NCBI RefSeq assembly: GCF_055900595.2
Contig: NZ_CM148325.1
DNA: 64,000 nt
Reading direction: 5' to 3' (one strand)
The notes under the pieces were generated by a model, which was not told the DNA's origin, did not search any database, and saw only the letters and a list, made by a program, of their open reading frames with translations. This document shows, one piece after another, positions 6,539 through 32,167 of the stretch. A program made the translations under genes and the position numbers. The first letter of the stretch is position 1; the number at the start of each line of letters is the position of its first letter.

Positions 6539-7798
6539 ATGCTGGTATCTAACTATAATTATGTAATCAGCCGTCGTCGTTTACTGCAAGGTGCGGGCGC
6601 CATGTGGCTATTGAGCGTAAGTCAGGTCAGCCTGGCTGCGGTCAGCCAGGTCGTGGCGGTACGCGTCTGGCCTGCGTCCAGCTACACCCGCGTGACGGTA
6701 GAATCAAATCGTCAGCTGCAATATAAGCAGTTCGCGTTAAGTAACCCTGAACGTGTGGTGGTGGATATCGAAGATGTAAACCTGAACTCGGTACTCAAGG
6801 GGATGGCGGCACAAATTCGTGCAGACGACCCGTTCATCAAGTCGGCGCGCGTCGGGCAATTTGACCCGCAAACCGTACGCATGGTTTTTGAATTAAAGCA
6901 AAACGTAAAACCGCAGCTGTTTGCCCTTGCGCCGGTCGCCGGGTTTAAAGAGCGTCTGGTGATGGACCTCTATCCGGCCAATGCACAGGATATGCAGGAC
7001 CCGCTGCTGGCGCTGCTGGAGGATTACAACAAAGGCGACCTCGAAAAGCAGGTGCCGCCAGCACAAAGTGGTCCACAACCGGGTAAAGCAGGGCGTGATC
7101 GTCCGATTGTCATTATGCTTGACCCCGGCCACGGTGGCGAAGACCCCGGTGCGGTGGGGAAATACAAAACACGCGAAAAAGACGTGGTATTGCAAATAGC
7201 TCGCCGTCTGCGCTCTCTGATCGAAAAAGAGGGTAATATGAAGGTGTACATGACGCGCAATGAAGACATCTTCATTCCGTTGCAAGTGCGTGTAGCAAAA
7301 GCACAGAAACAACGTGCTGACCTTTTTGTTTCTATCCATGCTGATGCCTTTACCAGTCGCCAGCCGAGCGGTTCTTCCGTGTTTGCGCTTTCGACCAAAG
7401 GCGCGACAAGTACTGCGGCAAAATATCTGGCACAAACCCAGAACGCCTCGGACTTGATTGGCGGCGTGAGCAAAAGCGGTGACCGCTATGTCGACCACAC
7501 CATGTTCGATATGGTGCAGTCTCTGACCATTGCCGACAGCCTGAAGTTGGGTAAAGCGGTGCTGAATAAGCTCGGTAAAATCAACAAGCTGCATAAAAAT
7601 CAGGTTGAACAGGCCGGGTTTGCCGTGCTGAAAGCACCTGATATTCCCTCCATTCTGGTCGAAACGGCGTTTATCAGTAACGTTGAGGAAGAGCGCAAAC
7701 TGAAAACGGCAAGATTCCAACAACAAGTGGCAGAATCTATCCTAGAGGGAATTAAAGAGTATTTTTCGGATATAGACGCGTTAGCGAGAAAAGCATAA
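6539..7798 (+). CDS. amiC: N-acetylmuramoyl-L-alanine amidase AmiC-like, Tat signal; first residues differ from the AmiC N-terminus I recall
   Basis: 419-aa ORF with twin-arginine motif [19 protein letters not shown] and amidase_3 regions; preceded by 650 bp of AT-rich DNA without ORFs. Confidence 0.85.
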
Positions 7799-22252: not shown

Positions 22253-23581
22253 CTGATGAATCCCCTAATGATTTTTATCAAAATCATTAAGTTAAGGTAG
22301 ATACACATCTTGTCATATGATCAAATGGTTTCGCCAAAAATCAATAATCAGACAACAAAATGTGCGAACTCGATATTTTACACGACTCTCTTTACCAATT
22401 CTGCCCCGAATTACACTTAAAACGACTCAACAGCTTAACGTTGGCTTGCCACGCCTTACTTGACTGTAAAACTCTCACTCTTACCGAACTTGGCCGTAAC
22501 CTGCCAACCAAAGCGAGAACAAAACATAACATCAAACGAATCGACCGATTGTTAGGTAATCGTCACCTCCACAAAGAGCGACTCGCTGTATACCGTTGGC
22601 ATGCTAGCTTTATCTGTTCGGGCAATACGATGCCCATTGTACTTGTTGACTGGTCTGATATCCGTGAGCAAAAACGGCTTATGGTATTGCGAGCTTCAGT
22701 CGCACTACACGGTCGTTCTGTTACTCTTTATGAGAAAGCGTTCCCGCTTTCAGAGCAATGTTCAAAGAAAGCTCATGACCAATTTCTAGCCGACCTTGCG
22801 AGCATTCTACCGAGTAACACCACACCGCTCATTGTCAGTGATGCTGGCTTTAAAGTGCCATGGTATAAATCCGTTGAGAAGCTGGGTTGGTACTGGTTAA
22901 GTCGAGTAAGAGGAAAAGTACAATATGCAGACCTAGGAGCGGAAAACTGGAAACCTATCAGCAACTTACATGATATGTCATCTAGTCACTCAAAGACTTT
23001 AGGCTATAAGAGGCTGACTAAAAGCAATCCAATCTCATGCCAAATTCTATTGTATAAATCTCGCTCTAAAGGCCGAAAAAATCAGCGCTCGACACGGACT
23101 CATTGTCACCACCCGTCACCTAAAATCTACTCAGCGTCGGCAAAGGAGCCATGGATTCTAGCAACTAACTTACCTGTTGAAATTCGAACACCCAAACAAC
23201 TTGTTAATATCTATTCGAAGCGAATGCAGATTGAAGAAACCTTCCGAGACTTGAAAAGTCCTGCCTACGGACTAGGCCTACGCCATAGCCGAACGAGCAG
23301 CTCAGAGCGTTTTGATATCATGCTGCTAATCGCCCTGATGCTTCAACTAACATGTTGGCTTGCGGGCGTTCATGCTCAGAAACAAGGTTGGGACAAGCAC
23401 TTCCAGGCTAACACAGTCAGAAATCGAAACGTACTCTCAACAGTTCGCTTAGGCATGGAAGTTTTGCGGCATTCTGGCTACACAATAACAAGGGAAGACT
23501 CACTCGTGGCTGCAACCCTGCTTACTCAAAATCTATTCACACATGGTTACGTTTTGGGGAAATTATGAGGGGATCTCTCAG
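22253..23581 (+). mobile_element. IS10, complete
   Basis: 1329 bp; outside end CTGATGAATCCCCTAATGATTTT at 22253, inside end ...GGGGATCTCTCAG at 23581. Confidence 0.95.
22360..23568 (+). CDS. IS10 transposase
   Basis: 402-aa ORF matching remembered IS10 transposase (MCELDILHDSLYQFCPELHLKRLNS...). Confidence 0.95.
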   Translation: MCELDILHDSLYQFCPELHLKRLNSLTLACHALLDCKTLTLTELGRNLPTKARTKHNIKRIDRLLGNRHLHKERLAVYRWHASFICSGNTMPIVLVDWSDIREQKRLMVLRASVALHGRSVTLYEKAFPLSEQCSKKAHDQFLADLASILPSNTTPLIVSDAGFKVPWYKSVEKLGWYWLSRVRGKVQYADLGAENWKPISNLHDMSSSHSKTLGYKRLTKSNPISCQILLYKSRSKGRKNQRSTRTHCHHPSPKIYSASAKEPWILATNLPVEIRTPKQLVNIYSKRMQIEETFRDLKSPAYGLGLRHSRTSSSERFDIMLLIALMLQLTCWLAGVHAQKQGWDKHFQANTVRNRNVLSTVRLGMEVLRHSGYTITREDSLVAATLLTQNLFTHGYVLGKL

Positions 23582-23590: not shown

Positions 23591-24174
23591 TATTCGGGTA
23601 GATAGTAAAGACATTGAAAGGTTATTCGATCGCTGGAATGAATCATTAAAAACAGGTGATGCCAAGAAGGTTGCTGATAACTATTTAAGTGATGCGATCT
23701 TACTGCCCACAGTATCAAAAAAAATTAGGATTACAGATGCAGAAAGAGTTGACTATTTTGAGCATTTTTTGAAAAAAAAACCTGTTGGAGAAATAAACTT
23801 CAGAACTATTCGCATTGGATGCAATATGGCTCTTGATACAGGGAATTACACGTTTACTTTTGAAGATAAAAAACAAGTTTCAGCACGCTATAGTTTCGCT
23901 TATGAGTGGGATGGAAAGGATTGGAAAATATCATCCCATCATTCATCTGTAGTGCCAACAACATAATATATTGAGCCTGTTTACCATTCTCTGTTAATGC
24001 CTTCTCTTAAAAGTGACCGTCCAAGCGGTCACTGATTACCCATTCTTAATTCAGTGCAGGATTAAAATATATGTGCAAAATAATTTAATTCAGACAGCTT
24101 TTTATTTCACTATGGCTATCCCAGATATCGACGACGGATGAAAAGTGGCTCTTACGCAACCTGGATGGAGATTT

Positions 24175-24540
24175 TCATGCCAGTGGACTCATGACCCTCT
24201 GTCTGAGTAGTTCAAATCCGGCTCGACCATACATCTGGCCTTTCAGCATTTTTAGTCTATTTACATGACTTTCGACAACCCCCATTATTCCAGCGACTGC
24301 TGATTGCCTCACATATAGCCGCAGCATCAGCTGCCATCCTTGCAGCCACGCGCCGAAGTTACCACTTTCTCGTTGCTCTTTTAACCACTCCCTCCATGGG
24401 GCCAGAAGTCCTCGCTCTGGAGGCCGGGTTGACATTTCAGGGAATGTTCCTGAACACACCCAGAGACTGACTGTCACACGTGATAAGCCTGTAATACGGG
24501 ATACGGCCTGATTGTATCCAATCTGGAAGAAAAGTTTCAT
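24175..24540 (-). CDS. hypothetical HTH protein, possibly transposase-derived
   Basis: HTH-like ITGLSRVTVSLW and C-terminal HVNRLKMLKGQMYGRAGFELLRQRV resembling a transposase tail. Confidence 0.3.
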   Translation of the reverse strand: MKLFFQIGYNQAVSRITGLSRVTVSLWVCSGTFPEMSTRPPERGLLAPWREWLKEQRESGNFGAWLQGWQLMLRLYVRQSAVAGIMGVVESHVNRLKMLKGQMYGRAGFELLRQRVMSPLA

Positions 24541-24879
24541 GATTTTATGGGCGTTATCCTTATGGTGCTGGGCGACGAGAGTAATACTTCACGCCGGTTT
24601 TGTCGGATAATCCAGAAATATAGGGGCAAATCCAAACAGGAAAGATAGGGGGAGGGACGCGTTTCCGGCACAACCAGCGTTACGTCACCCTGCATTGTTA
24701 GTTACGAAAAGCGTACCGGAAACGCGGAACATTCTTTTAACACATTACAGGCATTCGCACACATCTTTTTTCTTCTTTGTGCTCTGAACACTGCAGTGCT
24801 CAATTAATATTAGCCACGTTTTACAGTAAGAACGGTATCTGTTCTCTGATTCTTCCGGCGTCAACCCACAGTGTAATTA

Positions 24880-24916
<37 letters not shown>

Positions 24917-24922
24917 AGCTAG

Positions 24923-25659
<737 letters not shown>

Positions 25660-25669
25660 CTCTGTTCAG

Positions 25670-25879
25670 GTGACCAAATTCAGTGTGCCATTTCAGTCTG
25701 TAATGCGCTGTGTGAAAAAGCTCACTGACAGTCTGAGTATTTGTCTGCAAAGGATGGAAGCCCGTCGAGGGTTCCTGAAAACCACTGGTGCGCTGGCGAA
25801 TAAGCTGACAAGAATCATCTGGCGTGTTTTGAGCGATAGTATTGATTTTAATATGCAGAAGGCCGTTGTGATGAATTAA
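25670..25879 (+). pseudogene. IS110-family transposase C-terminal fragment
   Basis: TGALANKLTRIIWRVL C-terminal motif. Confidence 0.45.
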
Positions 25880-26301
25880 AGAAAAACAGTAAGTTATAGA
25901 AAATATTTTTAACTGAGTTTACATTCACTGATGAGATAACGGCTACCGCCCCTGTAACAGTCTGAAGTTGACCTGGGTAATCAAATACCGGTGTAGTGAT
26001 TAGGAAATAGGGCCCGGATAACATCATGGCGCAGGTCATTGAACCTACTAACGACGCCGGATATATGGTCGCAAACCGCATCGAACCAGTACTTGCCTCA
26101 TCTGGGACGTCCATATATGCTCAACAAAAGAGAGCGTTCAGAATTCTAGCCTCACATCATACCTGAAACCGCGTCCCGACCATAGATGATTTTATCGCCG
26201 GTTTTTTATGACAATTGTTATATTTCCGTAACAATCTTTCCGTAGACTCACGTGCATAAAAATGATTCCCCTTGAAATCGATTTTTTGAAAGGAAACCGC
26301 A

Positions 26302-28281
26302 ATGGGCAGACCGTTAAAAACTTTATTCAAACGTGAGCATAGTGAAGAAATCAGTAACCCGAGCGATAACCGCGCGTTTTCGCAGGTGGCGGAAGTCTAT
26401 TTGTCACGCCGCCGTCTGTTACAGGCAGGCACGGTCGCCGGTGCCGCGGCAGCGTTCCCATTTCTGCTGAAACAGGAAAACGCGCTGGCGAAAGTGGTCT
26501 CCAAAGCAAGCGGTAACCTCGGCAAAGCGACGACGCTCGGTTTCACCAGCCTGCCGGTTTCCACGGAAGATACCGTTATCGTGCCGGAAGGATACATCGC
26601 GAAGCCCTTCTACAAATGGGGCGACGCCACCGGGATTGCCGGAAATCTGCCGGTTTTTAAAACCGACGGTAGCAACACCACGGAAGAACAGGCGGCGCAG
26701 GCCGGGATGCACCACGACGGCATGGCGTGGTTTAGCCTGCCGCAGGGCGGGAACAGCTCCGATCACGGCCTGCTTGCCATAAACCATGAATACATCGATA
26801 ACGGTCTACTGTTTAAAGATGGCGATGCCAACTGGAGCGCCGATAAAGCTCTTAAAGGCCAGAACGCGATGGGCGTGTCGGTCATTGAAGTAAAAAAAGT
26901 GCCCCTGGGCTGGGAAGTGGTGCGCCCGTCATCGTTCGCACGCCGCATCACCGTTAACACGCCGATGAAAATCACCGGTCCGGCGCTGCATAACCCACTG
27001 ATGCAAACAGTTGACGATCCGAAAGGCGAAATCATTCTCGGCACCATGCAGAACTGTGCCAACGGATTTACGCCGTGGGGCACCTATCTGACGTGTGAAG
27101 AGAACTGGTCCGATATTTTCGTAAAAAAAGCAGAGATGAACCCGCTGGAAAAACGTTACGGTATCAGCGGGAGCGACGACTCTTACCGCTGGAACGAAGT
27201 GGATAAAAGGTTCAGCGTCGACGCCACGCCGAACGAGCCGAACCGCTTCGGCTGGGTGGTGGAAATCGATCCATACGATCCGCATTCAGTGCCGCGCAAG
27301 CACACCGCGCTTGGTCGCATCAAACACGAAGGCGCAGCGGTGACAATTGCCCCGGATAACCGCGTTGTGGTCTATATGGGCGATGACCAGAAATTCGAAT
27401 ACATATATAAATTTGTCTCGGAAGGAAAATTCAACCCGCAGGATCGCAAAGCCAACATGCACCTGCTGGAAAAAGGCACTCTGTACGTGGCGAAATTTAA
27501 CGACGACGGCAAAGGCGAGTGGCTACCGCTGGTGTTCGGACAAAATGGGCTCGACGCCAGTAAAGGGTTTGAAAACCAGGGCGACCTGTTGATTAAAACC
27601 CGTCTGGCGGCAGACGCCGTGGGGGCCACTAAAATGGACCGCCCGGAGTGGATTGCGGTCGATCCATATCACGCCGGCAGCGTTTACTGCACGCTCACCA
27701 ACAACAGCGATCGCGGTAAGGAAGGAAAAGCGCCAGTGGATGCGGCCAACCCGCGCGCCAAAAACGTTTACGGCCACATCATTCACTGGTTGGAGCATAA
27801 CGGTGACCCGACCGCGCTGCAGTTTGCCTGGGATATTCTTGTGATGGGCGGTCGCACCGATACAGACAAACTGGAAACCAAAGGCAGCATGAAGGGTGCG
27901 GAATTCGGCAGCGCCGATGGCCTGAGCTTTGATCACCGCGGCGTGCTATGGATCCAGACCGACGTGTCGTCATCAACCATAAATATTAAAGATTACAAAG
28001 GCATGGGCAACAACCAGATGGTGGCGACGATTCCCGGTACCAATGAGTTCCGCCGCTTCCTGACCGGCCCGCGCGGCTGCGAAATCACCGGCATCGCGTT
28101 CACTCCGGATAACCGGACGCTGTTTATTAACATCCAGCACCCTGGCGAGCCAAGCGAAGGGCTTAGCGATCCGCAGCATCCGACGGCAGTATCAAGCTGG
28201 CCTGACGGCGATAAGGCTGGTCGTCCGCGCTCCTCAACTGTCGTTATCGTAAAAGCCGACGGCGGCATAATCGGCACCTGA
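26302..28281 (+). CDS. PhoX-family (DUF839) Tat-secreted phosphatase-like protein
   Basis: 659-aa ORF with twin-arginine signal SRRRLLQAGTVAGAAAAFP and beta-propeller-like repeats. Confidence 0.55.
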   Translation: MGRPLKTLFKREHSEEISNPSDNRAFSQVAEVYLSRRRLLQAGTVAGAAAAFPFLLKQENALAKVVSKASGNLGKATTLGFTSLPVSTEDTVIVPEGYIAKPFYKWGDATGIAGNLPVFKTDGSNTTEEQAAQAGMHHDGMAWFSLPQGGNSSDHGLLAINHEYIDNGLLFKDGDANWSADKALKGQNAMGVSVIEVKKVPLGWEVVRPSSFARRITVNTPMKITGPALHNPLMQTVDDPKGEIILGTMQNCANGFTPWGTYLTCEENWSDIFVKKAEMNPLEKRYGISGSDDSYRWNEVDKRFSVDATPNEPNRFGWVVEIDPYDPHSVPRKHTALGRIKHEGAAVTIAPDNRVVVYMGDDQKFEYIYKFVSEGKFNPQDRKANMHLLEKGTLYVAKFNDDGKGEWLPLVFGQNGLDASKGFENQGDLLIKTRLAADAVGATKMDRPEWIAVDPYHAGSVYCTLTNNSDRGKEGKAPVDAANPRAKNVYGHIIHWLEHNGDPTALQFAWDILVMGGRTDTDKLETKGSMKGAEFGSADGLSFDHRGVLWIQTDVSSSTINIKDYKGMGNNQMVATIPGTNEFRRFLTGPRGCEITGIAFTPDNRTLFINIQHPGEPSEGLSDPQHPTAVSSWPDGDKAGRPRSSTVVIVKADGGIIGT

Positions 28282-28331
28282 TTCTGTTTCATCCGTCATT
28301 AAAAACGCAGGCGCGGTTAGCCTGTGTTTTT

Positions 28332-28930
28332 ATGGTAAAGTCCTGTCAGTCCGCGCGCTGGCTTCCTTCAACGCTTTGTCGTAATTTTTGTCAGTCTGCT
28401 CGTAGTCTGGAATGCCCGGAATTCCTCAACGCTATGCCACTGTTCAGGCGCGGTGTGATGAGAGTGGCGTCGCTGGGTTATGCCTTTCCGGGCACGATTC
28501 TGGCGATTGGTTTTCTGACTCCCTAAATGACCGCTGGCTGGCGGAACTACTGGATTACAGGGGGTTACCTTTAATGTCTGTCGGTGTCCTGTTGGTGATT
28601 TGCTGTACGATGCGATTTCAGGCAATAGCCATCGGCGCACTTGATGTCCGGCTGGGACGTATACCAGAGTCACTGGAACAAGCCTCACGTCTGCTGGGAG
28701 AAAATGGTACAGGAACTTTTGTTCGGGTTCACTTTCCTGTGTTGCTCTGGTGAGCAGTGCCCTGCTGGTTTTCACTGATGCGATGAAAGAACTGCCAGTA
28801 ACACTTCTTTATGCTGAAGCAGCCCGTGGAACTTTTGAAGAAGGGGCCATCTCTGCTTTAATGATTGTTCTTGCAGGGACATTTCCGGTTATTTTGTTTG
28901 TTCCAGCTGAAAGACTGAAATCAGAGGATT
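28332..28930 (+). pseudogene. ABC transporter permease, C-terminal fragments with frameshifts
   Basis: hydrophobic permease segments spread over three frames. Confidence 0.5.
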
Positions 28931-28933
28931 GAT

Positions 28934-29600
28934 TATGTCTGAAGAAACAGCTTTATGTATTAATGATGTCCATGTTGTTTATCCCAATAGCCCATATCCT
29001 GTATTGCGGGGCGGGGGGTATGTCAGTCTGTAAAGGTGAACTGGCATGTCTGCTTGGTACATCAGGTTGTGGAAAAACAACAGTACTACGTGCTGTAGCT
29101 GGTTTTGAGCGCCTGAACAAGGGGAAATTTTTGTATCACAGCATTGTGTGGCCAGCGCAGATATGCATTTTCCGCCGGAGAAATGTCATGTCGGTATAGT
29201 CTTTCAGGAATATGCGCTCTTTCCCCACCTTACAGTTTCACAAAACGTGGCTTTGGTCTGAGAAGACTGCCGAGAGATGTACAGCGAACCAGAGTTACAG
29301 AACTGTTGAAAATGGTGGATTTATTCCACTATTCAGACAGCTATCCTCATGAACTTTCAGGAGGTCAGCAGCAACGTATTGCCCTTGCAAGGTCACTGGT
29401 TCCAAATCCAGATATCCTGTTGCTAGATGAACCATTTTCCAGCTTGGATAAAAAACAAGGGTAGGACTGAGCCGTGAAGTTCGTGATATTTTGCATGAGG
29501 CAGGGCAGACAGCACTTTTAGTCACTTACAGTGAACACGAAGCATATTTGATGGGGGCTCGTATTAGATATGTTAAAAACGGACAATATTGGGAAGGGTA
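28934..29600 (+). pseudogene. ABC transporter ATP-binding protein, multiple frameshifts
   Basis: Walker A LGTSGCGKTT, signature [15 protein letters not shown], Walker B LLLDEP found in different frames. Confidence 0.6.
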
Positions 29601-30080
29601 ACCTTGCCAGCAGACTGTCAAGATGTATTAAACAGGTCGATTAGCTGTAGGCGGGATAGCTCGCGGGATAAATCATCTGAGAATGTGCCATTTTCCGGGC
29701 TGTTATGGGGGACAGGCATTGCTGGTTGTTGGTTCGTTGATGGAGGGAAAGCTGCAGCACAGATAATGGGGCTTTAGGAAAAGGAAAGACATAATAACCA
29801 CGACAAAGTGACTATCAAAGTGGGCCAAGGACATTTGAATGTTTGAGATAATAAATATTGTAATGAAGCTGAGGCTATTGCTACCACCACACACTACAGA
29901 ACCTGCACCATTGGATGCCAAGAACAACTGTCCTAATACATAGAAATGCTCAGATAAAAGTGTTTATGTCTCATCCGGCATGAAAACGATGAGCACATTA
30001 TCTACAATCCACAGGCCCTCCTATTTTCCCGCTTATACATTCCCCATCTTCCATTTTTCCTCACCCGCGCCGGCACCACA

Positions 30081-30109
30081 CTGTCATCTTTCTGAGGTTT
30101 TACTGTCTT
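30081..30109 (+). promoter_or_regulatory. pho-box-like repeats of the ugpB promoter
   Basis: CTGTCAT at 30081 and CTGTCTT at 30103, about 22 bp apart, upstream of the ugpB remnant. Confidence 0.4.
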
Positions 30110-30218
30110 ACACATGTAATAAAAAGTTATTTTTCTGCAATTCGGGCATGATATGTAATCCCGCGAGCATAAAACGAGTGAATTTGCACATCAGGTACAA
30201 CAAGCAAGAGAGATAAAC

Positions 30219-30790
30219 GATGAAACCGTTACATTATACAGCTTCATCACTGGTGCTCGGACTGGCGTTAATGGGCAATGCACAGGCAGTGACGACCATT
30301 CCGTTTTGGAACTCTATGGAAGGGGAAATGGGCAAAGAGGTGGATACAACTGGAAAACTTTAGCGCCAGGAACGGTCTGCCGTTTGCCAGCAAAAACAAC
30401 GGTTTTGACGCCACGGACGCGGTGCTGGAGTTCAACAAGCCGGAGCAGGTGAAACACATCGTCATGCTCGAGGAGATGAACAAGAAGGGCGACTTCATCT
30501 ACGTCGGGCGTAAGGATGAATCCACCGAGAAGTTCTATAGAGGTGATTGCGCGATGACCACCGCCTCTTCCGGTTCTCTTGCCAACATTCGCGAGTACGC
30601 CAAATTCAACTACGGCGTAGGCATGATGCCTTACGACGCTGACGCGAAAGATGCACCACAAAACGCCATTATCGGCGGAGCCAGCCTGTGGGTGATGCAG
30701 GGCAAAGATAAAGAAACGTATACCGGCGCAGGCGAAAAGCTGGCGGTAGGGGAATCATCGGATCTTTCTGCTCATCCGGCGTTATCTCCA
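30219..30790 (+). pseudogene. ugpB: ugpB remnant: N-terminus, large internal deletion, 3' truncation
   Basis: [27 protein letters not shown] then stop; resumes [12 protein letters not shown]...[22 protein letters not shown]; diverges after about 30745. Confidence 0.7.
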
Positions 30791-30990
30791 TAGGTAATAA
30801 TTCAACGCCTGCGTCAGAAGTGGTTGTTACCGGAAGACGCCGCGAAACACGCCCTTCGTTTTGCCAGAGTCTGAGCCATTTGAAAATAACATTATCATTG
30901 ATGCCAGACTCTCGTGCAATCTGGGCCACACAGGCTCCGGGTAAAAGAGTTTGCTGAACAAGTCTCCATTTTTACTCTGGTGAAAATCGG
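30669..30990 (-). pseudogene. IS3/IS66-type OrfA (HTH transposase) remnant
   Basis: RRNRFSPE-KWRLVQQTLLPGACVAQIARESGINDNVIFKW with in-frame stop. Confidence 0.4.
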
Positions 30991-31024
30991 TTCCGACGGG
31001 TTTTCTCTGTTTTTACAGGCTGAG

Positions 31025-31272
31025 TCACTGTCGGGGCTGAATATTATCGCCCCGGGAAAAGAGCCCGGTCAGTTGCACGCAGGAATATTCACCAGAAAGA
31101 TGCCCGTCAGTGAATACCTGATGAAATCGCCTCACCAGAGAAAAAATAGCGGTTTTGCTGACACCGGTCTGTGCAGAAATGCGCGGGTACGACAGTGTCT
31201 CGTCAAATTTCAGTTGTAGCAAACGCAGGATCAATTCCGGATTATCTGCCAGTACCGCCTTTCGTGCATTCA
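31025..31272 (-). CDS. hypothetical HTH-domain protein
   Basis: MNARKAVLADNPELILRLLQ...YPRISAQTGVSKTAIFSLV; start taken at internal Met of ORF 31025..31393. Confidence 0.3.
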
Positions 31273-31556
31273 TCGTAAATGTCCTTTTACTGCGAAAATG
31301 GACATTAGCATAGGAAACAGGAAAGGGAGGCGAAAGACGTTTTAATGAGACGGTTACTTTTTCTGCGCTCCTGCTGTTTTTTCTTAATCTCATCCAGTCG
31401 CTTCCCCGCGTTCGCCAGGTGCTCCTGTGTCACCTTCCCGCATGGATGGTCTTTCAGGTCGTAACGCACGCCACCAGCCATCAGGGCCGGTAATGTTCCA
31501 CCAGCGGTATATATTCTCCCGAGTCACGCCCGCTGGTATCGTGTTTCCCCCGCCAG

Positions 31557-31877
31557 TTAATAACCGTCATCGTTAACGCTATCAGGGTAATCGCGCCATA
31601 TTTCATCAGTAAGCGACGGTAGCCCCATTTTTTGTATTGTCCTGTCTGCGGCCTTTCTGACTGTATGAATATCAATACGGCTTTCAGGTATCGGGCGTTT
31701 TGCCTTCCTGATACATTCCCTTGCTCTCATTACTGCAAGCTGTCTGTGACTGTCTTTCTCAAGAGTAATCATCACATCCTGCCACCTTCTGGCAGCACGT
31801 CGCCACAGTCCCCTGCTCTCGAGTTCTTCCGCTGTCGCGTCGCTTATTGTCCGGCTCTTCAGTGTGCTGTTGTTCAT
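31557..31877 (-). CDS. PerC-family transcriptional regulator (PerC/Pch-like)
   Basis: 106-aa ORF with LESRGLWRRAARRW, RECIRKAKRPIPE and WRDYP motifs. Confidence 0.6.
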   Translation of the reverse strand: MNNSTLKSRTISDATAEELESRGLWRRAARRWQDVMITLEKDSHRQLAVMRARECIRKAKRPIPESRIDIHTVRKAADRTIQKMGLPSLTDEIWRDYPDSVNDDGY

Positions 31878-31894
31878 GTTGCGCCCCGCTTAAT

Positions 31895-32167
31895 TCATAA
31901 GGGTATATCATCTCCGTAAGTGGCGTCGCCTCCCGTTGGTGGCTGATTACCCTGTGTACCTGTGGTTTCGCGTCTGCTTCCTCCTGGCCGCACCGTTTGA
32001 GTACTGATTACGCTGTCTGCGATAACCTGCCGTCCCTGCCGCGTTTTCCCGTTCTGCCCTGTCCACTGGCTGACCTGCATGTTACCTGCCACGCTTACCA
32101 GTTCGCCTTTCTGGTGTCTGGCCAGTGCTTCGGCCTGTCTGCCAAACGCCAGCACAGATAACCACAT
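31895..32167 (-). pseudogene. single-stranded DNA-binding protein, C-terminal fragment
   Basis: FGRQAEALARHQKGELVSVAGNMQVSQWTGQNG resembles the SSB OB-fold C-terminal half; Gly/Gln-rich linker; acidic tail DDIPL. Confidence 0.5.

What the first reader, a model, noticed from the sequence alone, without database searches (positions are those of the whole stretch)
26150..28290. Intact Tat-secreted PhoX-family phosphatase-like gene amid decayed cargo
A 659-aa ORF with a clear twin-arginine signal and DUF839/PhoX-like features is one of the few intact non-IS genes in the island, flanked by an IS110 remnant upstream and frameshifted ABC transporter genes downstream. PhoX-type phosphatases are not part of the E. 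coli core as far as I recall, so retention suggests ongoing selection.
Basis: partly seen in the sequence, partly recalled or inferred. Interest (0 to 1): 0.5.

Follow-up and report, generated by a model that had tools for sequence, protein, structure and literature searches.

The report
Accessory PhoX alkaline phosphatase gene cassette
This is an intact, already-catalogued PhoX-type secreted phosphatase gene that a minority of E. coli strains picked up as a single-gene cassette from a Cronobacter-like relative; it is real and probably functional, but an ordinary member of a well-known enzyme family.

Summary
A 659-aa ORF lies at 26302..28281 (+). It matches Pfam PhoX (PF05787) end to end (E 1e-165) and is 47% identical to the solved Pseudomonas fluorescens PhoX. 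It has a twin-arginine signal (SRRRLLQ, above the TIGR01409 cut-off) and keeps 42 of 43 family-conserved positions.

The gene is accessory: full-length copies occur in 98 of 5,426 complete E. coli genomes. RefSeq already names it "PhoX family protein" (WP_000533456.1).

New context: only 26202-28377 is homologous to Cronobacter DNA (92% nt, 96% aa). That block is a self-contained unit with a Pho-box-like motif conserved in six enterobacterial loci, a -10, an RBS, the ORF and a terminator. The decayed ABC genes downstream are unrelated neighbours, not its old operon.

The same module sits in several different islands. Diverged copies are on plasmids. In one strain it was copied by an IS1414-bounded 7.3-kb transposon.

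Among four E. coli chromosomal alleles, 14 of 17 polymorphisms are synonymous, which supports purifying selection. However, about 370 other records keep only a 112-bp relic, so the gene is often lost.

Verdict: correct reading, known kind, low-to-moderate interest.

The parts
26202..28377 (+). Block homologous to Cronobacter chromosomal DNA (91.8% nt): the whole captured phoX cassette, comprising promoter, ORF and terminator.
   Evidence: blastn of window 24000-32000 against Cronobacter locus L005 aligns only 26202-28377. The E. coli plasmid allele L003 aligns only 26218-28381.
26216..26233 (+). Pho-box-like direct repeat TGTTATA-N4-CGTAACA (11-bp phasing); candidate PhoB binding site.
   Evidence: TGTTATA and GTAACA are invariant upstream of phoX in six aligned loci: window, E. 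coli plasmid, Cronobacter, Franconibacter, Klebsiella, Enterobacter. It is the single match in the window, with 0.03 expected by chance. It has 5 mismatches to the 18-bp E. coli consensus, so it was not found at <=3 mismatches.
26243..26248 (+). -10-like hexamer TAGACT (TAnnCT conserved in the orthologues), 10 nt after the 18-bp Pho-box frame.
   Evidence: Invariant T, A, C and T columns in the six-locus alignment; sequence read.
26290..26295 (+). Ribosome-binding site AAGGAA, 6 nt before the ATG.
   Evidence: Sequence read; the AGGAA columns are invariant in the alignment.
26302..28281 (+). phoX coding sequence, 659 aa: a PhoX-family alkaline phosphatase precursor.
   Evidence: It is identical to RefSeq WP_000533456.1, 'PhoX family protein'.
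26302..26490 (+). Tat signal peptide (residues 1-63): long conserved n-region, S35-R-R-R-L-L-Q, hydrophobic core AGTVAGAAAAFPFLL, and A-L-A before K64.
   Evidence: TIGR01409 scores 21.4 bits, above the cut-off. RR is conserved in at least 95% of 72 PhoX proteins. The N-termini of orthologues align. The solved mature P. fluorescens chain starts opposite residue 70. The cleavage site is inferred from the sequence.
28300..28332 (+). Intrinsic terminator hairpin (AAAAACGCAGGC-loop-GCCTGTGTTTTT), flanked by A and T runs, so potentially bidirectional.
   Evidence: RNA fold gives -19.2 kcal/mol, z -3.3. The consensus scan lists the site at 28324-28308 on the minus strand only. Sequence read.
24944..25879 (.). 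Upstream IS debris: IS3-family fragments on the minus strand and a weak IS110 C-terminal fragment at 25670-25876 (+).
   Evidence: NCBIfam IS3 E 2e-14; IS110 E 2.8e-4, below the cut-off. PGAP annotates pseudogenes here.
28378..29601 (+). Unrelated decayed neighbours: a truncated, frameshifted Fe3+-type ABC permease (28378-28932) and a frameshifted ABC ATPase (28935-29601).
   Evidence: PGAP annotation of the colinear SFE8 locus. The ATPase fragments hit PotA/PhnT2/ferric ATPase models. They lie outside the Cronobacter-homologous block.
30422..30790 (+). Fragment of a foreign ugpB (glycerol-3-phosphate binding protein), about 90% nt identical to the core E. coli ugpB.
   Evidence: NCBIfam UgpB E 7.6e-63, profile positions 225-335 of 439; megablast against E. 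coli genomes.
23972..24000 (+). Relic IS1414-like terminal inverted repeat. In strain NRZ14408 it serves as the left end of a 7.3-kb phoX-carrying transposon.
   Evidence: Sequence read. It matches the IS1414 end at 25 of 29 positions, by my manual comparison with the sequence printed. It is the boundary of the duplicated segment in L018/L017.

Best explanation
The ORF encodes a functional PhoX-family alkaline phosphatase, acquired horizontally and not part of the E. coli core.

[quoted passage not shown] There it hydrolyses organic phosphate monoesters using the Fe3+/Ca2+ active site typical of PhoX. This gives a second phosphate-scavenging enzyme whose metal requirement differs from that of Zn/Mg-dependent PhoA.

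Inferred from a conserved motif: transcription is probably switched on by PhoB under phosphate starvation, from a Pho-box-type promoter that travelled with the gene.

Shown here: the gene arrived as a 2.2-kb single-gene cassette (promoter, ORF, terminator) from a Cronobacter-like enterobacterium. It now sits between IS debris and unrelated pseudogenes. It is carried in several different genomic islands and on plasmids, and can be copied by IS1414-mediated transposition. It shows the substitution pattern of a gene under purifying selection.
For: Family:
- PF05787 matches over its full length, E 1.2e-165.
- phmmer against PDB gives E 2e-167 to P. fluorescens PhoX 3ZWU. BLASTP identity is 47% over 600 columns.
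- 42 of 43 columns conserved in at least 95% of 72 diverse PhoX proteins are retained. These include the NC(A)xG cysteine (C252, chain position 179) and E266/E267/N268.

Export:
- TIGR01409 scores above its cut-off.
- RR is conserved across the family.
- The n-region and start codon are conserved in orthologues.
- C. jejuni PhoX is an experimentally confirmed Tat substrate regulated by PhosRS (PMC3197622).

Regulation:
- TGTTATA-N4-YGTAACA is conserved in six aligned loci, 10 nt upstream of a conserved TAnnCT.
- It is unique in the window.

Origin:
- The closest proteins are from Cronobacter species, 94-96% aa identity.
- DNA homology is limited to 26202-28377.
- In Cronobacter the gene is chromosomal and has different neighbours.

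Selection:
- dN/dS is 0.06 against Cronobacter, 0.14 against the plasmid allele and 0.05-0.10 among E. coli alleles.
- The ratio is 14 synonymous to 3 non-synonymous, with the derived states absent from the outgroups. P(<=3 non-synonymous of 17) is 3e-7 to 2e-5.
- All three replacements fall in alignment columns that are gaps in most PhoX proteins.

Mobility:
- The same module occurs in other islands.
- It is on E. coli and E. albertii plasmids.
- NRZ14408 has a second 100% identical copy with 9-bp target duplications.
- There are 121 places in 98 genomes.
Against: - No experimental data exist for this protein, and I found no paper on PhoX in E. coli or Cronobacter in the held library.
- One position differs: Pro, invariant in 72 of 72 diverse PhoX proteins (SPDGL), is Ala538 here. 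The change is inherited from the Cronobacter lineage.
- The Pho-box-like site has 5 mismatches to the E. coli consensus in this allele (C instead of T at 26227) and failed a <=3-mismatch search.
- The gene is rare (1.8% of genomes).
- About 370 E. coli records and about 190 plasmids keep only a 112-bp relic of a related copy, so it is dispensable and often lost.
- One copy (strain CM2) is annotated as frameshifted.
- Polymorphisms cluster in the 3' third, and allele patterns are incongruent. Part of the synonymous excess could therefore have been imported by recombination rather than filtered in E. coli.
- Only four chromosomal alleles were sampled.
Confidence: 0.85

Rival explanations
1. Neutral hitch-hiker. 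The gene is intact only because it arrived recently on a mobile module and has not yet had time to decay. It gives E. coli no benefit.
For: - Most chromosomal copies are 99.6-100% identical, so the spread is recent.
- Prevalence is low (98 of 5,426).
- A related copy was reduced to a 112-bp relic in hundreds of plasmids and chromosomes.
- IS1414 activity alone can explain the extra copies.
- Divergence in the flanks (0.3-2.2%) is not clearly higher than in phoX (0.6-0.7%).
Against: - 14 of 17 polymorphisms among E. coli alleles are synonymous, against about 70-77% non-synonymous expected under neutrality.
- The three replacements sit in variable loops.
- phoX is the only intact gene in the core shared by several different islands, while every neighbour is a pseudogene.
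- Promoter and terminator are retained intact.
Confidence: 0.12
2. Inactive or repurposed PhoX homologue. The protein is expressed but is no longer a phosphomonoesterase, because of the Pro-to-Ala change at an otherwise invariant position, or because this enterobacterial clade has a different substrate or function.
For: - P538A sits next to the conserved Asp539, at a position that is Pro in 72 of 72 diverse PhoX proteins.
- PhoX enzymes differ in substrate range (PMC5768637).
- In Klebsiella and Enterobacter the orthologue lies next to a ZnuA-type metal ABC transporter. On one E. coli plasmid it is convergent with a phytase-like esterase gene. Both hint at specialised roles.
Against: - The Ala is shared by the Cronobacter representative and by 11 of the 120 closest homologues, including Buttiauxella. 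The Cronobacter-type gene evolves under strong purifying selection (dN/dS 0.06).
- All other conserved positions are retained.
Confidence: 0.03

Closest known systems
Pseudomonas fluorescens Pf0-1 PhoX (PDB 3ZWU, 4A9V, 4A9X, 4ALF, 4AMF)
   Same: Full-length homology: E 2e-167 and 47% identity. The same Pfam domain spans the protein end to end. The conserved Cys of the NCAxG motif and the E-E-N motif are retained. The precursor has a twin-arginine signal.
   Different: The long N-terminal n-region, several surface loops and Ala instead of Pro in the SPDGL motif. The gene is carried on mobile DNA in E. coli rather than being a resident gene.
Cronobacter spp. chromosomal PhoX (e.g. C. sakazakii, C. 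malonaticus; same 90% cluster)
   Same: 94-96% amino-acid identity, same length (659 aa), and the same promoter, RBS and terminator DNA at 91.8% nt identity. It also shares the P538A change.
   Different: In Cronobacter the gene lies between inositol-catabolism/MFS genes and a MetNIQ-like transporter. In E. coli only the 2.2-kb gene cassette is present, embedded in IS debris.
Campylobacter jejuni PhoX (Cj0145, 'PhoAcj')
   Same: The same enzyme family. It is an experimentally shown Tat substrate, induced by a PhoBR-type two-component system, and contributes modestly to chicken colonisation (PMC3197622).
   Different: It is the sole alkaline phosphatase of C. jejuni and a core gene. Here PhoX is an accessory enzyme in a species that has PhoA as a core alkaline phosphatase (established knowledge of E. 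coli; not checked in these genomes).
E. coli PhoA (core alkaline phosphatase)
   Same: Expected role: a periplasmic, phosphate-starvation-induced phosphomonoesterase of the Pho regulon. This is established knowledge for PhoA and an inference for this gene.
   Different: The fold and family are unrelated. PhoA uses Zn/Mg and is exported by Sec, whereas PhoX uses Fe/Ca and is exported by Tat. This gene is not a member of the PhoA family.

Membership tests
PhoX alkaline phosphatase family (Pfam PF05787, formerly DUF839) | Full-length match to the PhoX profile HMM | tested here: met
   PF05787 E 1.2e-165, score 553, model positions 2-515 of 515, residues 80-615.
PhoX alkaline phosphatase family (Pfam PF05787, formerly DUF839) | Sequence homology across the whole mature chain to a structurally and biochemically characterised PhoX | tested here: met
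   P. fluorescens PhoX 3ZWU: E 2.2e-167, query 70-658 against chain 2-585; 47% identity. The fold itself was not modelled.
PhoX alkaline phosphatase family (Pfam PF05787, formerly DUF839) | Retention of family-conserved (putative metal-binding and catalytic) residues | tested here: met
   42 of 43 columns conserved in at least 95% of 72 diverse PhoX proteins are retained. C252 (chain position 179), N251, E266, E267, N268, D446, D539, D554 and H613 are present. The single exception, P538A, is shared with Cronobacter orthologues. That Cys179 is an Fe ligand is from my memory of Yong et al. 2014; I did not read the paper here.
PhoX alkaline phosphatase family (Pfam PF05787, formerly DUF839) | Twin-arginine (Tat) signal peptide | tested here: met
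   S-R-R-R-L-L-Q at residues 35-41. TIGR01409 scores 21.4 bits against a cut-off of 16.7. Pfam TAT_signal is only E 0.016. RR is conserved in at least 95% of 72 family members. Actual export was not tested.
PhoX alkaline phosphatase family (Pfam PF05787, formerly DUF839) | Fe3+/Ca2+-dependent phosphomonoesterase activity | not testable with these tools
   Needs purified protein, metal analysis and enzyme assays.
Pho regulon (PhoB-activated promoters) | Pho box (two 7-bp TGTCA-type direct repeats with 11-bp phasing) about 10 bp upstream of the -10 hexamer | tested here: inconclusive
   TGTTATATTTCCGTAACA at 26216-26233, 10 nt before TAGACT. The repeats are invariant in six aligned loci and unique in the window. 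However, there are 5 mismatches to CTGTCATAWAWCTGTCAY and no hit at <=3 mismatches. PhoB binding was not tested.

The most novel reading that the evidence does not exclude
The phoX cassette is a positively selected, mobile niche trait rather than passive cargo. It would supply a zinc-independent, Fe/Ca-dependent phosphate-scavenging enzyme that helps E. coli in bird guts or other hosts where zinc is withheld or organic phosphate is abundant. This would explain four things: its repeated capture into different islands and plasmids, the IS1414-driven copy-number increase (up to 4 places per genome), the over-representation of poultry isolates among carriers, and its pairing with a phytase-like esterase on one plasmid.
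Probability: 0.15. Interest if true: 0.45.

Novelty: already known. Interest (0 to 1): 0.22.

Why it matters
The gene shows that some E. coli lineages carry a second alkaline phosphatase that needs different metals from PhoA. Many of the carriers listed here came from poultry. This could matter for phosphate acquisition when zinc is limiting. It could also confound phoA-based reporter or phenotype assays in such strains.

It is also a clean example of a single housekeeping-type gene being captured, with its own promoter and terminator, from another enterobacterial genus and then shuffled between islands, plasmids and core-genome sites by IS elements.

The enzyme family, its export route and its regulation are well established, and the protein is already correctly named in RefSeq. 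The finding therefore opens no new question.

Tried and rejected
- NCBIfam scan of the whole protein: no family hit. NCBIfam returned no match for the full protein; the Tat model hit only when the N-terminus was scanned alone.
- Search for the canonical 18-bp Pho box with <=3 mismatches: nothing in the window. The site was found only by comparing orthologous upstream regions.
- Idea that the downstream ABC genes were PhoX's ancestral operon partners, or a 2-aminoethylphosphonate or sugar-phosphate importer. Rejected as ancestral partners because Cronobacter homology ends at 28377 and the donor has MetNIQ-like genes there. The permease fragments hit no specific NCBIfam model, and the ATPase fragments hit many families about equally, so the transporter's substrate remains unknown.
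- Idea that the ugpB fragment marks a phosphate-scavenging cluster. It is a piece of a foreign ugpB, separated from phoX by other pseudogenes and absent from the other islands carrying the module. I treat it as coincidental patchwork.
- Attempt to read Yong et al. 2014 for the ligand list: the paper is not held, and a text search for 'Cys179' found nothing relevant. I replaced it with a family-conservation test.
- Literature searches for PhoX in E. coli islands or in Cronobacter: no relevant paper.
- CM2 'frameshifted' copy: the two compensating 1-nt indels lie in T4 and A4 homopolymers, so I regard them as probable sequencing errors. I did not count this copy as decay, but cannot exclude it.
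Full report
**Observation**

The window holds one long ORF at 26302..28281 on the + strand: 659 aa, ATG start, no internal stop. The finding's coordinates 26150-28290 bracket it. A Shine-Dalgarno-like AAGGAA lies 6 nt upstream of the ATG.

The window is colinear, apart from IS differences, with the chromosome of E. coli strain SFE8 at 99.97% identity over most of the aligned region (97.3% in the core-gene segment beyond the island). There PGAP annotates the ORF as 'PhoX family protein', WP_000533456.1.

The annotation of that colinear region shows an IS-ridden island:
- It includes iha, remnants of integrating-conjugative-element genes, and a tyrosine recombinase at window 37631-38848 next to ynjA.
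- Most features are pseudogenes or IS elements.
- Upstream of the ORF are IS3-family fragments and a weak IS110 C-terminal fragment.
- Downstream are a truncated, frameshifted Fe3+-type ABC permease, a frameshifted ABC ATPase and, further on, a ugpB fragment.

Only the 'IS110' label is weakly supported (20 bits, below the model's cut-off).

**What the protein is**

- Pfam PF05787 (PhoX) matches from model position 2 to 515 of 515, E 1.2e-165.
- The closest solved structure is the P. fluorescens alkaline phosphatase PhoX (3ZWU and related entries). It matches at E 2e-167 over query residues 70-658, with 47% identity by BLASTP.
- I searched 1.84 billion cluster representatives and aligned 71 diverse full-length PhoX proteins plus the 3ZWU chain. 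Of 43 columns conserved in at least 95% of them, the window protein keeps 42.
- The cysteine of the N-C-A-x-G motif (C252, equivalent to chain position 179), the E-E-N motif and several conserved Asp and His residues are present. From memory of Yong et al. 2014, that cysteine is an Fe ligand.
- The one exception is Ala538, where all 72 other sequences have Pro (SPDGL). Eleven of the 120 closest homologues share the Ala, including the Cronobacter representative and Buttiauxella. It is therefore inherited, not a lesion that arose in E. coli.

**Export signal**

- Residues 35-41 read S-R-R-R-L-L-Q. They are followed by a hydrophobic stretch (AGTVAGAAAAFPFLL) and A-L-A before K64.
- The Pfam Tat model is weak (E 0.016). 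TIGR01409 scores 21.4 bits against a curated cut-off of 16.7 when the N-terminus is scanned alone.
- The two arginines lie in columns conserved in at least 95% of the 72 diverse PhoX proteins.
- The unusually long 34-residue n-region before the RR is conserved in Cronobacter, Franconibacter, Enterobacter, Klebsiella, Buttiauxella, Atlantibacter and in Snodgrassella/Neisseria orthologues. The annotated start is therefore the real one.
- Tat dependence has been shown experimentally for C. jejuni PhoX (PMC3197622). For this protein it is an inference.

**Origin and anatomy of the cassette**

- The nearest proteins are from Cronobacter species, at 94-96% identity and in the same 90% cluster. Next come Franconibacter (81%) and Enterobacter/Klebsiella (76-78%).
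- At the DNA level, similarity to a Cronobacter chromosome covers only window 26202-28377 (91.8%), and similarity to a diverged E. coli plasmid copy only 26218-28381. That is the ORF plus 100 bp upstream and 96 bp downstream.
- In Cronobacter the neighbours are inositol-catabolism/MFS genes and a MetNIQ-like transporter. The decayed ABC genes next to the E. coli copy are therefore unrelated neighbours, not a former operon.
- The 100 bp upstream carry a motif, TGTTATA-N4-YGTAACA, whose two 7-bp repeats are invariant in six aligned loci. A conserved TAnnCT hexamer follows 10 nt downstream of the 18-bp frame.
- This is the architecture of a PhoB-dependent promoter (established knowledge of E. coli pho promoters). 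In this allele, however, the site has five mismatches to the 18-bp consensus and escaped a three-mismatch search. The motif occurs once in the window, against 0.03 expected.
- The 96 bp downstream contain a strong hairpin flanked by A and T runs (-19.2 kcal/mol, z -3.3).

The captured piece is thus a complete transcription unit.

**Distribution**

- Full-length copies are present in 98 of 5,426 complete E. coli genomes. Ninety-four are chromosomal at 99% identity or more, and four are on plasmids at about 93.6%. PLSDB holds 11 plasmids with a full-length copy, including a conjugative IncI plasmid of E. albertii from a pigeon.
- The same core (IS debris, phoX, first part of the truncated permease; window 24504/25520 to 28818) sits in other islands at other chromosomal sites in strains AR_0085, AH65 and ES1.
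- The 98 genomes hold 121 places, with up to four per genome.
- In strain NRZ14408 a second, 100% identical copy lies between yhdZ and the rrnD 5S gene. It is part of a 7,276-bp segment bounded by an IS1414-like relic inverted repeat (also present in the window at 23972-24000) and an intact IS1414. A 9-bp direct repeat, GATTTGATG, lies on both sides, which is the signature of transposition.
- Conversely, about 370 further E. coli records carry only a 112-bp relic of a related phoX (gene positions 863-974, 91-94% identical to all three alleles). PGAP annotates it as an 'alkaline phosphatase' pseudogene, next to an autotransporter gene and a RelE/Phd module. These records include B strains and many IncF plasmids.
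- About 190 PLSDB plasmids of E. coli, Salmonella, Shigella and E. marmotae carry the same relic.

**Is it under selection?**

- Long-term: dN/dS is 0.06 against Cronobacter, 0.14 against the plasmid allele and 0.08-0.13 against more distant orthologues.
- Among four chromosomal E. coli alleles that share the same pseudogene flanks, 17 sites vary: 14 synonymous and 3 non-synonymous.
- With 69-77% non-synonymous changes expected under neutrality, the probability of three or fewer is between 3e-7 and 2e-5.
- Most derived states are absent from both outgroups, so they arose in the island lineage.
- The three replacements (K473T, P524L, S562I) lie in columns that are gaps in most PhoX proteins.
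- Eight of the nine copies whose annotation I inspected are intact. The ninth (CM2) has two compensating single-base indels in T4 and A4 homopolymers, most likely sequencing errors.

Caveats:
- Only four alleles were sampled.
- The differences cluster in the 3' third, and the site patterns are mutually incongruent, which indicates recombination.
- Flank divergence is not clearly higher than gene divergence.
- The relics show that loss is frequent.

I conclude that purifying selection has acted since the module was assembled, but the benefit is conditional.

**Mechanism**

Shown here: family membership, conserved residues, signal motif, cassette boundaries, distribution, mobility and substitution pattern.

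Inferred:
- PhoB-dependent induction.
- Tat export to the periplasm.
- Fe/Ca-dependent hydrolysis of phosphate monoesters, giving phosphate for uptake alongside the Zn/Mg enzyme PhoA.

**Comparison and novelty**

This is a regular member of the PhoX family and is already named as such in RefSeq. I found no paper dealing with PhoX in E. coli or Cronobacter in the held library, so it appears uncharacterised experimentally. Nothing in the sequence departs from the known kind.

What is new is the context: single-gene capture with promoter and terminator, spread through several islands and plasmids, an IS1414 pseudo-compound transposon, widespread relics, and a possible link to poultry. This has modest interest for E. 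coli genome ecology.

Interest is 0.22. Novelty class: already known.

Noticed in passing
window 23972-24000; related loci L017 6360-13635 and L018 6771-14046 (E. coli NRZ14408): In NRZ14408 a 7,276-bp segment carrying phoX is present twice at 100% identity. The second copy lies between yhdZ and the rrnD 5S gene. It is bounded by an IS1414-like relic inverted repeat and an intact IS1414, with a 9-bp GATTTGATG repeat on both sides, so it is a pseudo-compound transposon. Across the 98 carrier genomes there are 121 places, up to 4 per genome.
   Followed up: partly
L004 4000-4140 (E. coli B derivative T7Express) and L015 5000-5140 (IncFII plasmid); corresponds to window 27164-27275: A 112-bp relic of a related phoX, 91-94% identical, is annotated as an 'alkaline phosphatase' pseudogene beside an autotransporter gene and a RelE/Phd module. 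It occurs in about 370 E. coli records and about 190 PLSDB plasmids, including Salmonella, Shigella and E. marmotae. This implies an older, widely spread plasmid-borne copy that was deleted.
   Followed up: partly
carrier genomes listed: 30 of the 60 best-matching carrier records are from chickens or poultry products, and 2 are from black kites. In a quasi-random set of 30 E. coli genomes (ugpB spread rows) only 1 is from poultry. Several records are clonal duplicates, and lineage effects were not corrected.
   Followed up: partly
window 27913-27915 (codon 538): Ala replaces a Pro that is invariant in 72 of 72 diverse PhoX proteins (SPDGL motif, next to a conserved Asp). The change is shared with Cronobacter and Buttiauxella orthologues. 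Its functional consequence is unknown.
   Followed up: partly
window 26302-26403 (residues 1-34): An unusually long n-region precedes the twin arginines (MxRPLK..F/LKxEHxxEISNxSxN..FSxV..). It is conserved from Enterobacteriaceae to Snodgrassella/Neisseria PhoX, which hints at a function such as chaperone binding before Tat export.
   Followed up: no
L003 9793-11136 (E. coli E8 plasmid p3); L010 and L012 8253-10827 (Klebsiella, Enterobacter): On a 34-kb poultry E. coli plasmid, phoX is convergent with an intact 'esterase-like activity of phytase' gene. In Klebsiella and Enterobacter, phoX is followed by a ZnuA/ABC-3-type metal ABC transporter; in Klebsiella an integrase gene lies just upstream of phoX. 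These are recurrent but differing neighbours that may relate to substrate or metal supply.
   Followed up: no
window 30422-30790: A fragment corresponding to UgpB profile positions 225-335 is about 90% nt identical to the core E. coli ugpB. It is a piece of another enterobacterium's Pho-regulon gene stranded in the island. I judge it coincidental patchwork.
   Followed up: partly
window 6539-7798: An intact gene scores above the NCBIfam AmiC cut-off (793 bits). It encodes a Tat-exported cell-wall amidase and sits in low-GC DNA (39-47%) among IS elements. This looks like an island-borne amiC paralogue rather than the core gene.
   Followed up: no
window 22253-23581: A 1.33-kb IS4-family element (402-aa transposase) is present in the window but absent from the otherwise colinear SFE8 and NRZ14408 loci. 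The alignment blocks overlap by 9 bp at the junction, consistent with a target duplication.
   Followed up: partly
L014 6076 and 6175 (E. coli CM2): The only phoX copy annotated as frameshifted has a -1 in a T4 run and a +1 in an A4 run 99 nt apart. This scrambles residues 26-58, which include the Tat motif. It is most likely a long-read homopolymer error.
   Followed up: partly
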